This document shows positions 2,064-60,460 of a stretch of DNA of 64,000 nucleotides, in pieces. The notes under the pieces are model-generated. The model was given only the letters and a program-made list of their open reading frames with translations, had not been told where the DNA came from and ran no database searches. This DNA comes from Eledone cirrhosa (taxonomy: Eukaryota): assembly GCA_964016885.1 (NCBI GenBank), contig OZ024750.1, positions 16,120,001 through 16,184,000 on the forward strand, given 5' to 3'. Positions within the stretch are counted from its first letter, which is position 1. Every line of letters begins with the position of its first letter. Made by a program: the position numbers and the translations under genes.

Positions 2064-5000
2064 CTTATGAAAAAAATGAAATGAAATTGACAGCTCATTC
2101 CTATGTAGGTTTAGCTGGCCTCACATGAGGTTACATCTCATTGGAGGTTTCAGATGATTGGGGAGGCCCCTCTTTTAACAAGCAAAGCAATGTAAAATAA
2201 AACATGTTACTCAAGAACACAACACACCCCACAACCTTCTGATCACACCCTAACTACTAGGCCATGTGCCTTCCCAGTTACTATAAAGTCAATCCTCTTG
2301 TGGTTAACTGCTATATATATAGTAAGTTTCTGTGGGGGTCAACTGCCTTTTAGAGCAAATATTCATGTCTTTAACAGTCTGGTCACTTCATAACAAACCA
2401 CCTTGTGGTCAGCTATTTATAGTATATTTCATTAGATACCTGTCTTTAATATTCTGATCACTTCATAGCCAACTCCCTAGTGGTCAAGCTACTCTATAGT
2501 ATATTTCCATGGGTATCTGTCAACATACTGGTCAATTTTAGCCAATTTCCTTGTGGTCAGCTATTATTTATAGAATATTTCCATGGGTATCTGTCAACAT
2601 ACTGGTCAATTTTAGCCAATTTCCTTGTGACCAGCTACTATTTATAGAATATTTTCATGGGTATCTGTCTGGAACACAGTATGTTTCCATAAGTACCCGC
2701 CTTTTTCCACACTCATTGAAGCGAGTAGATGCAGTGGATATAACAATAACGATACAACAGAGTAACAAATTAACTTAAATTACTTATTTACCTGTCTTAA
2801 TGGTACACTATTAATTGGTTAAATCAAACTGTTGTTCTCTAACACTTTCGGAAGTACCAAATTATTTTGACAAAATTCCTGTCATTAACAGAACAAGGTG
2901 AACTAAGTATAATATTGTTTTTGTTGTTATTATTGTTGATTTCAAATGACTGAGGTAGCTGCTCTCTAAAACTATTATTACTCTAGTTTTAACCATTTTT
3001 TTTACCATGTTTCTAATGAAAGACACTGCCTATGGTTTTAAAATGATTTTGAAAATAATCATGTGTATGTATATATGTGTATATCTGGGTGTTTGCATTT
3101 GTGCTTATATTTATATCTTCCTTAACTTAGCAGTTTGACAAAAAGAGATCGACAAAAAGAGATCAATAAAATAAGTACTACACTTGGAAAAAAAACTCCA
3201 GAAAAACGTACTGTGGTCAATATTATTGAAATTTAACTCTTAACCCTTTAGCGTTTACATTACTTTATATTTACTTTTGTATGTTCACGGTAAAGGCTTT
3301 ATTTACCTGACAAAATTATCTCACATAATATCGAATCTATGAGATTTTGATATTATCTTGAGAACAATACCTTAACAGCAGTATGAGTGGTCAGTTACGG
3401 CTGGTTTGAACAGAAAGAGGTGAGAGAATTCTGGCCAGATTAAAATCTTATGATTTAGCAGAAAATAGAATTATCTAAAAATGGGTTTCCTACTTCAAAT
3501 GGTTATAGTATCTTTAACAGAAGACATACTGTTGCGAAAATTTGCAGTATTACAGCAAATATTATATTTTCTAATGTTGTGCAAACATAGTACTGTTTTA
3601 TAATTTTCAAGAATGTCTTGCTAATGTGGTTTCAGGATGCCAAGAGTTAAGGCAGTGCTCTAGAATAGACGCATTCTAAATGATAAATCCAGTACAAGAG
3701 TTATATAGAAGTAAGCTGAAATGCAAAAATAAAAATAAAAATTTTAATAAAAAATTAACTAAATTGTCTTGGAAATAATTCTGTAGTTGTCACAGACAAC
3801 TGTAGTAGCAGTAATGGAATAAATAGGCTGGTAGACAATAGAATAAATCGATAGATGTAAATATTTTTAAACTGTTAAATCTTTAAACAGGAAAATACTT
3901 GCAATTTTACAGAAGTAGTGTGCAGTAATAGTGACTGGATATGTTTAAGTAACACATTGCTTCATGAAAATATTGCTAAGCTGGTAAATCTTTCACCCTT
4001 CGATAACCATATTTCTAAAAAAAAACACCGTCTATGATTTTCAAATAATTTTGAAAATCATTATCAATTCAGAGAGATTTAGTAAAATAACTAACTTTCA
4101 CATTACATTAGTGCTTGGAACATAGCTAAAAAGCATTTTTATTTACATAAAATTGTGATGGAAGGTTTATAAATAAATATAAACATTTTAACCATTTCAT
4201 TGCTATACTTCAGATGAAAAGTACTGTCTATGATGTGCAAATATTTTGAAAATTATATCAAGAATTTTAAGGGATTTAGTAATATATCTAGCCTTTTCAA
4301 TATAAAGATGGTGTTTGAAACTTAACAAAATTTCTTACATAAAATTATGATGGAAGGTTTTTTTTAGATAAATATAACCACTAAAACTACTTTAGAAAAA
4401 TAGTTTTAGAATAACCTCAACCTAAAAATCTATTTTTAATTGAAGGTTATTTTGGTTTCATACTAAGGAATTAAATTTAAAAACTGTGTTAGAGAATTGG
4501 CAAATTTAACAGTACAAAAAGAAAGGAAGGAATAAGTGGGGTAAACAAATTAAAAATGTCAGCAAACAATGCCGTGAATTTAAGTGAAGGAAAAATGTTT
4601 TTAGATGTATCAATTTCAGAGATAACATGCCACTCAGTTTGAGGATAAAAACCCCACAATCTTACTATCACAAAACCAACACTGTGACCACTGCATCACA
4701 CATGCCATCACATAGCATTATTCTTAACACAATTATTATTTTTACAGGCTTCATCATTTAACATCTATTTTCCCTGCTAGTAAAGGTTGGACAAGATACA
4801 GCTGAGATAACATACCACCAAGAATAGAAGTTGAACCTACAACCTGACAAACATACCATGAGACCATCATGGTAATCACTAGCCACACACACCTTCACAT
4901 AATGTCATTATTGACATAATGGTTATTATTCTTATAGACATAGTTGAGATTCTAACCATTATACAGAGACAGTAAAATAGTAAAACAGTAATGCTGTAAT

Positions 5001-20631: not shown

Positions 20632-20663
<32 letters not shown>

Positions 20664-20701
20664 ATTAAATAAATGGAAAACTATATTTATAAAACCATAT
20701 T

Positions 20702-20767
20702 TATTTCATTATATATATTTCGGGGATATCATATTAACAATATGCTATGCCTTCATCAGACAAAATA
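20702..20767 (-). ncRNA. Type I hammerhead ribozyme motif (mirror copy, left arm)
   Basis: Exact reverse complement of 20937-21002. Confidence 0.7.
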
Positions 20768-20936
20768 CAATATAAACAGTTTTATAGATAAATATATTCG
20801 ACATACCGTAATAAACATCAACTTCATTTGAAAAGGTTTACTCTAGCAGGTTCACTGCTAGAGTAAACCTCTTCAAATGAAGTTGATGTTTATTACGGTA
20901 TGTCGAATATATTTATCTATAAAACTGTTTATATTG

Positions 20937-21002
20937 TATTTTGTCTGATGAAGGCATAGCATATTGTTAATATGATATCCCCGAAATATATATAATGAAA
21001 TA
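20937..21002 (+). ncRNA. Type I hammerhead ribozyme motif (family A, right arm of palindrome)
   Basis: UAUUUUGU-CUGAUGA-AGGCAUAGCAUAUU GUU AAUAUGAUAUCCCC-GAAA-UAUAUA-UA-AUGAAAUA. Stem I includes GU pairs. Confidence 0.7.
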
Positions 21003-21130
21003 AATATGGTTTTATAAATATAGTTTTCCATTTATTTAATATTGTAAATATACTCCAAATATTTGTCGAGTGCTTTTATATCAGTTATAAATATTTACTA
21101 GTTGTAACCCAACAATTTTAAATATAACTT

Positions 21131-21164
<34 letters not shown>

Positions 21165-22634: not shown

Positions 22635-22966
22635 AGGCACATGGCTTAGTGGTTAAAGCATTGGCCTTGCAATCGAAAGGTTGTGAGTTCAATTCTCAGA
22701 CCGGGTGATGTGTTGTTTCCTTGAGCAAGACACTTTATTTCACATTGCTCCAGTTTACTCAGCTGTAGAAATGAGATGATAGGGACTAGGGTCCATATCA
22801 TTCCTCTGCAAAGTGGTTGTGGAGGTGCCACGGCAAAAAAAGCACCCAGCCCTCACTGTAAATGAGGTTGGTGTTAGGAAGGGCATCCAGCTGGAGAAAT
22901 CAAGCCAGAATCAGTTCCCGTCCCACCCTTGCAAGCAGGGAAAAGTGGACGTAAAATGAAATGATG
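22635..22966 (+). mobile_element. tRNA-derived CORE-like SINE
   Basis: Copy of 6001-6330. Confidence 0.8.
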
Positions 22967-28264: not shown

Positions 28265-28312
<48 letters not shown>

Positions 28313-28438
28313 AGTTATATTTAAATTGTTGGGTTAACAACGAGTAAATATTTATAACTGATATAAAAGCACTCAACAAGTATTTGGAGTATATTTATGA
28401 TATTAAATAAATGGAAACTATATTTATAAAACCATATT

Positions 28439-28504
28439 TATTTCGTTATATATATTTCAGGGATATCATATTAACAATATGTTATGCCATCTTCAGACAA
28501 AATA
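28439..28504 (-). ncRNA. Type I hammerhead motif (mirror copy)
   Basis: Reverse complement of 28665-28730. Confidence 0.65.
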
Positions 28505-28664
28505 CAATATAAACAGTCTTATAAATAAATAGATACGACATACCTTTCAATCACCTTGCATTTGTGAGGTTGATTTGGCAGATCAACCTCACAAATCAAC
28601 CTCACAAATGCAAGGTGATTGAAAGGTATGTCGTATCTATTTATTTATAAGACTGTTTATATTG

Positions 28665-28730
28665 TATTTTGTCTGAAGATGGCATAACATATTGTTAATA
28701 TGATATCCCTGAAATATATATAACGAAATA
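28665..28730 (+). ncRNA. Type I hammerhead motif (family A, CUGAAGA core)
   Basis: UAUUUUGU-CUGAAGA-UGGCAUAACAUAUU GUU AAUAUGAUAUCCCU-GAAA-UAUAUA-UA-ACGAAAUA. Confidence 0.65.
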
Positions 28731-28761
28731 AATATGGTTTTATAAATATAGTTTCCATTTA

Positions 28762-28822
<61 letters not shown>

Positions 28823-34440: not shown

Positions 34441-34999
34441 TGCATAGATATATATATATGCATATATATATATATATGCATATATATATATAAATATGCA
34501 TAGATATATATATATGCATACATATATATATATATATGCATACATATATATATATGCATACAGAAATATATATATATATATATATGTAAATATGCATACA
34601 TATATATATATATGCATACATATATATATATATATGCATACATATATATATATATATGCATACATATATATATATATATATATATACAAATATGCATACA
34701 TAAATATATATATATGCATACATATATATATGCATACATATATATATATATATATATATGCATATATATATATATATATATATATATGCATATATATATA
34801 TATATTATATATATGTAAATATGCATACATATATTATATGCATACATATATATATATATGCATACATATATATATATATGTAAATATGCATACATATATA
34901 TATATATATATACATACATATGGATATGTATTCCAGGGATAACTTGAACTGTTAAGGTATATTATCCTTGGTGATGTCAAATATTTATAAAACATTTTG

Positions 35000-35060
35000 T
35001 ATTTTATCTGATGATAGCGTACCAAAATTTTTGGTACCCTTGAAATATATATATAGAATA
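35000..35060 (+). ncRNA. Hammerhead motif (family A variant)
   Basis: CUGAUGA at 35008, stem II GUACCAAAA/UUUUGGUAC, GAAA at 35042, family-A downstream flank. The stem I/III register is off by one nucleotide. Confidence 0.55.
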
Positions 35061-37257
35061 AATATGGTTTTATAAATATAGTTTCCATTTATTTAATATC
35101 ATTGTATATATGCATACATATATACATACATACATGCATACATATATATATATATATATGTAAATATGCATACATATATATAATATATGCATACATATAT
35201 ATATATGCATACATATATACATGCATACATACATATATACATATATGCATACATATATACATATATGCATACATATATACATATATGAATACATAATATA
35301 TGCATACATATATCATATATGCATACATATATACATATATGCATACATATATACATATATGCATACATATATACATAATATGCATACATATATACATATA
35401 TGCATACATATATACATATATGCATACATATATACATATATATATGCATACATATATACATATATATATGCATACATTATATACATATATATATGCATAC
35501 ATATATATATATATATGCATACAATATATATATACATATGCATACATATATACATATGCATACATATATACATATGCATACATATATAATATGAGCATAT
35601 GCATACATATATATATGTACACATATATATATATGTACACACATATATATATATGTACACACATTATATATATATGTACACACACATATATATATGTACA
35701 TACATATATATATGTACACATATATATATGTACACATATATATATGTACACATATATATGTACACATATATATATGTACACATATATATATTTACATACA
35801 TATATATATATGTACCACACATATATATATGTACACACATATATATATATGTACACACATATATATATGTACACACATATATATATGTACATACATATAT
35901 ATATGTACACACATATATATGTACACACATATATATGTACACATATATATATGTACACATATATATATGTACACATATATATATACAGATATACATATAT
36001 ATATACAGATATACATATATATATATACATATATGTATATACATATATATATATGTAGATATATATATATACATATATGTATATACATATATATATATAT
36101 GTAGATATATATATATACATATATGTATATACATATATATATATGTATATACATATATATATATGTAGATATATATATATACATATATGTATATACATAT
36201 ATATATATGTAGATATATATATATACATATATGTATATACATATATATATATGTAGATATATATATACATATATGTATATACATATATATATATGTATAT
36301 ACATATATTATATATGTAGATATATATATATATATATACATATATGTATATACATATATATATATGTATATACATATATATATATGTAGATATATATATA
36401 TATATATACATATATGTATATACATATATATATATGTATATACATATATATATATGTATATACATATATATATGTAGATATATATATATATATACATATA
36501 TGTATATACATATATATATATGTATATAACATATATATATATGTAGATATATATATATATATACATATATGTATATACATATATAGTTTCGTTGTCAAGT
36601 ATATCAATGTGCACAGACACGCAGATATATTGCCTTGGTATATTAGATTTAAGGTATTTATCACAGACTGCCTATGCGGATACATCTCCGGGCTGTATGT
36701 TTTGGAAACAGTATTATATCGGCTAATGCTTGGAACTGGAACCAATGGATGTTGTTCATAGTGTGCTGGTACGATATGGAGAATCGACCTGTAACAAGGC
36801 GATATAACTGGAGTACACCATCCATCCTATAGACAACAATCCCACATGTAAAGTTGCACCAACCGCTAACCAACTATTCTTCTCACGGGCTCATGCTTGC
36901 AAGCTCTCTTAATCTGCCTGTACATCCTGTATTTGCACTGCTTGTGAAGTGATGTGTCTATGCTTTGCTTAGTTTTGTATTTTTTTGTTGTTTTTGATCA
37001 TGCTGAGTAACACCCTCACTCATTTCTTGCTACCCTCACTCATTTCTTGCTATCCTCTCCCAATCTCCTTATCATCTATTGCACCATTTATGTGATAAAT
37101 TTTTGATGTAGTTTTTTATGACATTATGTGCATCATGTATTGTGTATTTTTCTATATAGCGCTGGCCTCGGGACCCCCCCCCCCCCTACTGGTCCTTTGA
37201 CCTTGTTCTGATGACTGAGCTTGATGGAGCCTGCAACTTTTGATATACTCTTGTTTA

Positions 37258-39736: not shown

Positions 39737-39801
<65 letters not shown>

Positions 39802-39963
39802 AGAAAGTATGACCCCGACGGCAGAGCTCAAGCCGTTTCGACGGCTATTTCTGGACCCACTCTACTACCCTAAATATTGAGTACTCTGGTGCGTTTTGGT
39901 CCATCTGGTTCCTTACCACAACTCATTCGTTATATTTATATATATATATATATATATATATAC

Positions 39964-40270
39964 ACGATATTAAACAAATGGAAACTATATTTATAAAACC
40001 ATATTTATTTCATTATACATATTTCAGGGATACCATATTAAAAATATGGCATGCCTTCAGATAAAATACATTTTATCTGAATTTCTGAAGAAGGCATGCC
40101 ATATTTTTAATATGGTATCCTGAAATATGTATAATGAAATAAATATGGTTTTATAAATATAGTTTCCATTTGTTTAATATCGTATATCTACTCCAAAACT
40201 TGTTGACTGCTTTATATCAGTTATAAAATATTTACTCGTTGTAACCCAACAATTTTAAATAAAACTTTTG

Positions 40271-40272
<2 letters not shown>
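39964..40272 (+). mobile_element. Fold-back HHR element, family A (~97-bp arms)
   Basis: Inverted repeat 39964-40183 plus the same tail, with (TA)n flanks. Confidence 0.75.
40081..40140 (+). ncRNA. Hammerhead motif (family A), 5' side of stem I rearranged
   Basis: CUGAAGA-AGGCAUGCCAUAUU UUU AAUAUGGUAUCCU-GAAA-UAUGUA-UA-AUGAAAU. Confidence 0.55.
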
Positions 40273-40348: not shown

Positions 40349-40716
40349 CAAAATAACAGGAGGTATGTTCTGGTATAAATCCTTGAAAGGTTTATTTTAC
40401 TATGATCAGTTCAGTATGAATGCGGTGACATCATAAGGTAATTCAAAATATAACGAAGGAATATATCAGATAGAAATCTTTGGTGTTTAAATCAGAGACA
40501 AGAGGTTGGTCGACGTAAATACAAATCACTAAAATACCGGCCGCCCTCTTGTCTTTGATTTAAACACCAAAGATTTTTATCTGATATATTTATTCGTTAT
40601 ATTTTGAATTACCTGATGATGTCACCGGATTCATACTGAACTGATCATAGTAAAATAAACCTTTCAAGCATTTACACCTGAACATGCCTCATGTTATTTT
40701 CCGTACTCGCACCACC
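40348..40716. mobile_element. Imperfect fold-back element in (TA)n
   Basis: ~160-bp inverted arms around a ~30-bp spacer at about 40510-40540. Confidence 0.65.
40609..40653 (+). ncRNA. Degenerate hammerhead-like motif
   Basis: UUAC-CUGAUGA-(weak stem II)-GAAC-UGAUCA-UA-GUAA then AAUAAA. GAAA is changed to GAAC in both arms. Confidence 0.35.
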
Positions 40717-60236: not shown

Positions 60237-60363
60237 CGTTATTCCGGGTTGAATCGGAGGTAACCACAGTAAGTAAGGTACTCAATACATAGCTGAGTAT
60301 AAAAGTTTTAATATAGATGAGATTCTACAGGACTAGAACTGTTTCATTCTTTAGAAATCATCA

Positions 60364-60412
60364 GGATTCCTGATGATTTCTAAAGAATGAAACAGTTCTA
60401 GTCCTGTAGAAT

Positions 60413-60414
<2 letters not shown>
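60364..60414 (+). ncRNA. Type I hammerhead ribozyme motif (family B, complete)
   Basis: GGAUUC-CUGAUGA-UUUC UAAA GAAU-GAAA-CAG UUCUAGUC CUG-UA-GAAUCU, GUA triplet. A mirror copy lies on the minus strand at about 60320-60370. Confidence 0.75.

Positions 60415-60460
<46 letters not shown>

What the first reader, a model, noticed from the sequence alone, without database searches (positions are those of the whole stretch)
20658..21136. Near-perfect 389-bp palindrome placing an HHR on both strands, apparently created at insertion
The arms (192 bp, one mismatch seen, 5-nt loop) share private variants that differ from the 28308 and 39964 copies, whose own arms share their own variants (for example CUGAAGA in both arms at 28.4-28.7 kb). 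Arm length and fold-back point differ per copy (192, 178, ~97 bp) while the ~90-bp tail is single-copy. Inference: each palindrome came from one template by snap-back or template switching during reverse transcription, as in inverted pseudo-LTRs of Penelope, rather than from inherited TIRs.
Basis: partly seen in the sequence, partly recalled or inferred. Interest (0 to 1): 0.75.

Follow-up and report, generated by a model that had tools for sequence, protein, structure and literature searches.

The report
Penelope retroelement copied from both ends
This palindrome is one end of a young Penelope-type jumping gene with more than 1,600 copies, a layout already described, and the pattern across about a hundred copies suggests that both ends of the cut host DNA likely copy the same RNA from two fixed starting points, rather than one copy folding back on itself.

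Summary
The palindrome is real: 192-bp arms, 5-nt loop, one mismatch, 90-bp single-copy tail, (TA)n on both sides. It is the 3' end (hammerhead-bearing pLTR plus tail) of a young Penelope-like element with Hydra-clade protein motifs; its tail motif occurs 1,668 times in the genome. An inverted pLTR with a one-sided tail is the published PLE layout. In 97 positionally sampled loci, 70 have a tail-less inverted arm with a fixed end. That arm reaches further 5' than the tailed arm in 25 of 70 and shares no sequence with it in 8 of 70, which snap-back from one cDNA cannot give. One A-to-G hyper-edited copy carries the same edits in both arms, pointing to one sense RNA. This copy's centre lies at a hot spot (21 of 70), likely the RNA's 5' end. 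Best model: priming from both target ends at two fixed sites. The scan found this layout, two-ended priming and edited copies before on other DNA of this genome. Reads did not confirm this locus.

The parts
20633..20657 (.). (TA)n target, left side
   Evidence: TA run left of the insertion in 70 of 70 tail-less loci
20658..20849 (-). tail-less inverted pLTR arm (unit positions 3688-3879); outer end at the fixed internal site
20701..20768 (-). mirror copy of the hammerhead motif
   Evidence: motif only, activity untested
20850..20854 (.). junction of the two arms, GTTCA; TTCA is element sequence of the right arm; A20854 is unit position 3687, the hot spot of 5' ends, in an initiator-like TCACT (20852-20856)
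   Evidence: transcription start inferred, not tested
20855..21046 (+). pLTR arm in element sense, continuous with the tail
20936..21003 (+). type I hammerhead motif with long stem II and minimal palindromic stem III; predicted cut after 20994
   Evidence: no Rfam hit; monomer fold not favoured
21047..21136 (+). single-copy 90-bp tail; in tandem copies it is followed after about 45 nt by the ORF start
21052..21071 (+). small bulged hairpin about 6 nt behind the tail-less end; a twin lies about 6-8 nt behind the tail end in full units
   Evidence: weak energies (-0.5 to -2.6 kcal/mol); pattern written after seeing the sequences
21137..21164 (.). (TA)n target, right side
   Evidence: TA run on the right in 67 of 70
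28308..28769 (-). subfamily B copy: tailed arm on minus, tail-less arm on plus, short duplication at the centre
39964..40272 (+). subfamily C copy: short arms broken inside the hammerhead, tail on the right
34982..35111 (.). older, degraded two-armed copy (78-79% identical)
   Evidence: not followed further

Best explanation
This is the hammerhead-bearing end of a young Hydra-type Penelope-like retrotransposon, inserted in a TA repeat as two back-to-back arms that were likely each reverse-transcribed from one end of the cut DNA. Shown: the parent unit is about 3.97 kb (pLTR, tail, 737-aa RT plus GIY-YIG ORF, 3' UTR); one arm ends at the tail end and the other about 90 nt earlier, both in (TA)n; their inner ends vary, either arm can be longer, and they meet through short overlaps or short inserts. 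Inferred: the endonuclease cuts both strands of (TA)n; each 3' end primes at one of two fixed internal start sites on the same sense RNA, the second polymerase displacing the first cDNA where the arms overlap; the two cDNA ends are then joined by end-joining. The start-site pair occurs twice in a tandem transcript: the 3' pair would give long, unevenly cut arms, and the 5' pair (or a short pLTR-only transcript) would run off the RNA's 5' end at unit position 3687 and give the short, near-symmetric palindromes, of which this locus is one. The hammerhead on both strands is a by-product.
For: 1,668 exact tail motifs. Tandem unit L031 and intact ORF in L044. Of 97 loci, 77 have an inverted partner: 70 tail-less, 4 tailed, 3 other. 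49 of 70 leave the element at exactly the same TTGTA|TA junction; the tail ends in two classes, 47 and 46 of 97. Tail-less arm further 5' by more than 20 nt in 25 of 70, tailed arm in 18, within 20 nt in 27; no overlap in 8. Long/short classes agree between arms in 65 of 70 (Fisher p 6.5e-13); both arms end at 3677-3697 in 21 of 70 (p 6e-9). Junctions: 37 overlaps, 8 blunt, 25 inserts. Recurrent variants 62 shared vs 7 unshared; 20 shared vs 0 unshared in 24 loci with the longer tail-less arm. L174: 74 of 76 rare changes are A>G on the sense strand, about 70 A>G lie in both arms, the arms differ only by a 16-nt indel and an edge base, and the edited motif occurs exactly twice in the genome. 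L254: 127 A>G vs 4 T>C. In vitro, a Poseidon PLE cleaves and extends both strands, starts at two internal sites that bound the tail, and is predicted to dimerise (PMC11167929).
Against: The one-molecule barcode rests on one locus (L174), where the tailed arm is the longer, so snap-back or later gene conversion is not excluded there; non-nested arms come from other loci, where shared variants prove one source lineage, not one molecule. Private variants were 17 shared (8 of them in L174) vs 25 unshared. The own arm was the unique nearest in only 5 of 51 loci, tied in 32, not nearest in 14. A few inverted arms are short fold-backs that do not reach the fixed end (L002, L164, L064). 20 of 97 loci show no inverted partner. 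The transcription start is untested and some arms pass it by up to 10 nt. No target-site duplication can be read in (TA)n. Strand displacement is unshown. One screen hit had T>C excess (L225, 9 of 15 against subfamily C at 89% identity), not followed.
Confidence: 0.65

Rival explanations
1. Snap-back or self-priming: one cDNA folds on itself and is copied back to make the inverted arm (first reader; self-priming on an antisense template was proposed in PMC3846280).
For: Arms pair by locus; L174 arms are identical in their edits; 27 of 70 loci have centres within 20 nt; a few tiny fold-backs exist (L002, L164).
Against: A copied arm must be nested in its template. In 25 of 70 loci each arm holds sequence the other lacks, and 8 of 70 share none. 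It does not explain the fixed outer end. Edits in both hyper-edited copies are A>G on the sense strand, so those templates were sense RNA.
Confidence: 0.13
2. Dual priming: two RNA molecules from the same source locus, one on each target end, with or without later gene conversion between the arms.
For: Explains overlap without strand displacement, non-nested arms and shared subfamily variants; a dimer is predicted for a related RT (PMC11167929); dual priming was postulated for L1 (PMC2837659).
Against: Two molecules should carry different editing patterns; L174 has the same pattern over about 1,150 bp and no other genomic source of it, which would need full-length conversion. 25 unshared private differences show conversion is not general.
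Confidence: 0.17
3. An inherited palindromic non-autonomous element (MITE-like, or a whole palindrome retro-copied).
For: Centre hot spot in 21 of 70 loci; many subfamily-B loci fold within a few bases (the B query contained the junction, so that set is biased).
Against: Junction letters differ from locus to locus; ends are asymmetric, so not TIRs; the same ends bound kilobase-long ORF arms; an RNA that already held both arms would be edited separately on each, unlike L174.
Confidence: 0.03
4. Chimeric-read or assembly artefact.
For: No independent contig or read bridged this locus.
Against: A fold-back chimera mirrors tail and flank, but here both flanks differ and the tail is single; the outer end is fixed across 70 loci; arms can be non-overlapping. 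One short-read contig crosses a similar centre, with only 26 nt on one side, below the tool's 31-nt bar.
Confidence: 0.02

Closest known systems
Hydra clade of C-terminal EN+ Penelope-like elements (PMC8557442; Hydra-1_Obim is listed in its supplement)
   Same: Single ORF with RT and C-terminal GIY-YIG; RWR/RWK, DKT, CxCX5C, CxxC and CxH motifs, no CCHH; hammerhead; (TA)n targets.
   Different: Unit about 3.8-4.2 kb against 'generally under 3 kb'; a GVKF is present; tail about 90 bp against 30-40 bp quoted for PLEs; no tree against named Hydra proteins was built.
PLE inverted 5'-truncated pLTR with one-sided tail (PMC8557442 Fig. 2 legend; PMC3846280)
   Same: Head-to-head inverted arm beside a direct arm, tail on one side, initiator-like TCACT in the pLTR.
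   Different: PMC3846280 explains the palindromes by self-priming on an antisense template; the loci here favour a sense template primed from both target ends.
Poseidon_Ac in vitro (PMC11167929)
   Same: Internal RT starts at two sites that bound the tail, both target strands cut and extended, AT-rich targets, hammerhead cleavage not needed.
   Different: There the hammerhead and start sites overlap the ORF start; here the tail ends about 45 nt before the ATG. The parts read do not link two-strand extension to inverted genomic arms.
L1 twin priming and dual priming (as described in PMC2837659)
   Same: Both target strands prime; inverted plus direct segment; short microhomology at the inner junction.
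   Different: In L1 the second site is variable, the segments do not overlap and inversion is an exception; here the second site is fixed, arms usually overlap, and about 72% of loci (70 of 97) have it.
Minimal type I hammerheads of metazoan PLEs (PMC4209133)
   Same: Conserved core, short palindromic helix III, long helix II, expected to work as a dimer.
   Different: Stem II of 31 nt is long; activity untested.

Membership tests
EN+ Penelope-like element | single ORF with RT core and C-terminal GIY-YIG nuclease | tested here: met
   737-aa ORF with LDI, MGS, YRDD and IVY..YVG motifs, conserved in 20 aligned relatives. Pfam gave no hit for P0001 and PDB none, so the call rests on motifs.
EN+ Penelope-like element | partial tandems forming pLTRs, inverted 5'-truncated copy, one-sided tail | tested here: met
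   L031, L035, L116, L117 tandems; 70 of 97 tail-less inverted arms
EN+ Penelope-like element | hammerhead motif in the pLTR | tested here: met
   motif and stems by inspection; no Rfam match
Hydra clade | DKT, RWK, CxCX5C linker, CxxC and CxH around E and N, no CCHH | tested here: met
   DKT 118, RWR 37 (RWK in the paper), CNCRDRSKC 596, CDLC 694, CKH 721, one cysteine between IVY and YVG
Hydra clade | (TA)n insertion | tested here: met
   TA on both sides in 67 of 70
Hydra clade | generally under 3 kb; GxKF/Y not conserved | tested here: inconclusive
   units 3,969, 4,157 and 3,814 bp; GVKF in P0001, pattern in 7 of 20 relatives. The paper gives both as tendencies.
Hydra clade | RT phylogeny groups with named Hydra families | not tested
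   no named reference proteins were fetched
Active hammerhead ribozyme | self-cleavage at the AUA triplet | not testable with these tools
   monomer fold not favoured; no pile-up of arm ends at the predicted cut
MITE / DNA transposon | terminal inverted repeats and one fixed internal structure | tested here: not met
   asymmetric ends, variable centres, RT-encoding parent
Non-LTR retrozyme | tandem 150-400 nt hammerhead monomers without ORF (definition partly recalled; abstract) | tested here: not met
   no monomer arrays among the 97 loci; repeats are ORF-bearing units

The most novel reading that the evidence does not exclude
Penelope-like elements insert as a rule by two-ended priming: both ends of a cut TA repeat start reverse transcription at two fixed, hairpin-marked sites on one sense RNA, which by itself yields the tail, the inverted pLTR and, by run-off at the RNA's 5' end, hundreds of fixed-centre ribozyme palindromes; ADAR edits copied into DNA barcode the single template.
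Probability: 0.5. Interest if true: 0.7.

Novelty: new member of a known kind. Interest (0 to 1): 0.45.

Why it matters
The locus is an ordinary PLE stub. The family data matter because PMC8557442 names the origin of PLE tandem/inverted structures and tails as open, and the one explanation I found in print (antisense self-priming, PMC3846280) fits these loci poorly. Non-overlapping arms, matched arm-length classes and an edit-barcoded copy give concrete predictions for the existing in vitro system (PMC11167929). They also show RNA edits fixed in inherited DNA, and a steady source of long hairpins that may feed double-stranded RNA back to editing enzymes (inferred).

Tried and rejected
Rfam at both thresholds: no hammerhead family, only generic hairpin matches below gathering scores. 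Pfam and PDB searches with the ORF: nothing. A 107-nt tail DNA query returned nothing because common words are skipped; an exact pattern worked. Sequencing runs: no RNA holder listed. Hammerhead cleavage as source of the 5' ends: no cluster near 3828. A copied cap G at 3687: seen in 3 of 40 arm rows listed, too few. An apparent unshared edit in L174 was an alignment effect of a 16-nt indel. Search for more edited two-armed loci gave only L254, whose partner arm is not visible; a screen of 254 loci (last 330 nt, at least 88% identity) found only L174 and missed L254. Top-hit sets are biased by the query ends and were not used for hot-spot counts. The original L1 twin-priming paper was not held. 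No target-site duplication could be read in (TA)n.

Full report
Observation. The sequence is as described: arms 20658-20849 and 20855-21046, loop GTTCA, one mismatch, a 90-bp tail to 21136, TA runs on both sides. The hammerhead is present by motif on each arm, but Rfam does not detect it and the monomer's best fold is not the ribozyme, as expected for the minimal, probably dimeric PLE hammerheads of PMC4209133 (passages). The genome is 3.0 Gb; named relatives of the ORF include cephalopod proteins.

What it is. The right arm plus tail matches 24 other places at 100% over 282 nt and 15 more over 281 nt among 40 scored candidates; a 37-nt tail motif occurs 1,668 times, the reversed control 0 times. 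Longer loci give the parent: L031 is a pLTR-tail-ORF-UTR-pLTR-tail tandem with a 3,969-bp unit, and L044 holds an intact 737-aa ORF.

Unbiased sample. I took the first 100 of the 1,668 matches, in order along one chromosome; three pairs fell in one region, leaving 97 loci (five used regions fetched earlier). BLAST ends are good to a few bases. 77 have an inverted partner: 70 tail-less, 4 tailed, 3 other. The tail-less arm leaves the element at one junction (49 of 70 exact, most others within a few bases), and the tail ends in two classes three to five bases apart (47 and 46 of 97). Both sides are TA in 67 of 70. At the inner ends, the tail-less arm reaches more than 20 nt further 5' in 25 of 70 (by up to several kb), the tailed arm in 18, and 27 are within 20 nt; in 8 the arms share no sequence. 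Each arm therefore needs its own copying event from element RNA. The geometry is what priming from both target ends gives: each arm's outer end is a primer junction and its inner end a cDNA 3' end. Junctions show 37 overlaps, 8 blunt joins and 25 inserts, often local duplications.

Do arms pair by locus? Yes. With tandem loci left out, 61 loci had overlap (13,515 bp): recurrent variants 62 shared and 7 unshared, private variants 17 shared and 25 unshared; within-locus distance 0.0026 against 0.0142 between loci in 51 loci (permutation p 0.0005), though the own arm was the unique nearest in only 5, tied in 32 and not nearest in 14. B (26 of 29 loci usable) gave 0.0025 vs 0.0123 and C (20 of 30) 0.0060 vs 0.0095. 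In 24 of the 25 loci with the longer tail-less arm (one tandem dropped) recurrent variants were 20 shared, 0 unshared. L174 is the sharpest case: 74 of its 76 rare changes in unique sequence are A>G on the sense strand; across the 101 A>G variants pooled over all loci (most from L174) the 5' neighbour is U or A in 86, the preference of ADAR (recalled). About 70 A>G changes (72 by my count of the list, a few at polymorphic sites) lie in both arms, which otherwise differ by a 16-nt indel and an edge base; the edited motif occurs twice in the genome, once per arm. That points to one edited sense molecule. In L174 the tailed arm is longer, so this locus alone cannot exclude snap-back or gene conversion. 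L254 is a second sense-edited copy (127 A>G, 4 T>C).

The centre of this copy. Both arms end within 3677-3697 in 21 of 70 loci, and long versus short classes agree in 65 of 70. Many arms stop at A3687 (window 20854), in TCACT; B and C have pyrimidine-ACT at the matching place, and PMC3846280 notes an initiator-like TCACT in a rotifer pLTR (passages). I infer that this is the RNA's 5' end and that short palindromes are run-off products; no RNA data were available. Each unit of A, B and C has exactly two matches to a small bulged hairpin pattern, each about 6-8 nt behind one insertion end; the lead came from earlier notes, my pattern was written after seeing the sequences, and the energies are weak.

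Artefact. Reads did not confirm this locus. Against an artefact: the flanks differ, the tail is not mirrored, the outer end is fixed, and arms can be disjoint.

Known and new. The layout is published (PMC8557442, passages; PMC3846280). PMC3846280 proposes self-priming on an antisense template. PMC11167929 (main text, parts 1-2 of 4) shows two-strand cleavage and extension and two internal starts that bound the tail. L1 twin and dual priming are described in PMC2837659 (passages); a bioRxiv L1 paper was read in passages only and a retrozyme preprint as abstract. Searches listed no paper that applies twin priming to PLE palindromes or describes edited PLE copies, judged from listings; older subscription papers on Penelope are not in the library and may hold such a model. 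Earlier notes of this scan reached two-ended priming, twin hairpins and edited copies on other DNA of this genome; I had reached two-ended priming and found L174 before opening them, and they are not independent support.

Verdict. Observation confirmed, interpretation partly supported. Identity as a PLE end about 0.95; two-ended priming about 0.8; one RNA molecule about 0.65; run-off at the RNA start about 0.6. New member of a known kind; interest 0.45, for the mechanism rather than the locus.

Noticed in passing
L174 (G000:C1:52530801-52539800): A>G hyper-edited copy: 64 of 241 As changed at unit 1681-2300, 11 of 65 in the pLTR, 2 of 161 at 1267-1680 and 0 of 17 in the unselected part of the tail, as if only a double-stranded part of the RNA was edited.
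   Followed up: yes
L254:7092-8747: Second hyper-edited copy, tail-less arm with 127 A>G, including changes in the hammerhead core; partner arm not visible.
   Followed up: partly
L171, L250, L198: Internal deletions or duplications present in both arms of one locus.
   Followed up: no
L186, L233, L238, L239, L065, L097: Loci with a tail on both arms; in several one arm runs on into the ORF start, i.e. it came from a 3' start pair of a tandem RNA.
   Followed up: partly
L047: Three arms: two inverted pieces in a row before the tailed arm.
   Followed up: no
window 40350-40700: Another inverted repeat, 163-bp arms, 91% complementary, with CTGATGA-like cores; probably a different PLE family.
   Followed up: partly
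window 60311-60423: Short perfect palindrome of about 55-bp arms between TA runs.
   Followed up: no
window 39800-39930 and flanks of many loci: A recurring 130-bp TA-flanked repeat next to many insertions.
   Followed up: no
window 22642-22699: Weak tRNA match at the gathering score, likely a SINE head.
   Followed up: no
L032:6650-8788, L048:7256-7999: Fragments of other, more distant PLE-like ORFs near family copies.
   Followed up: no
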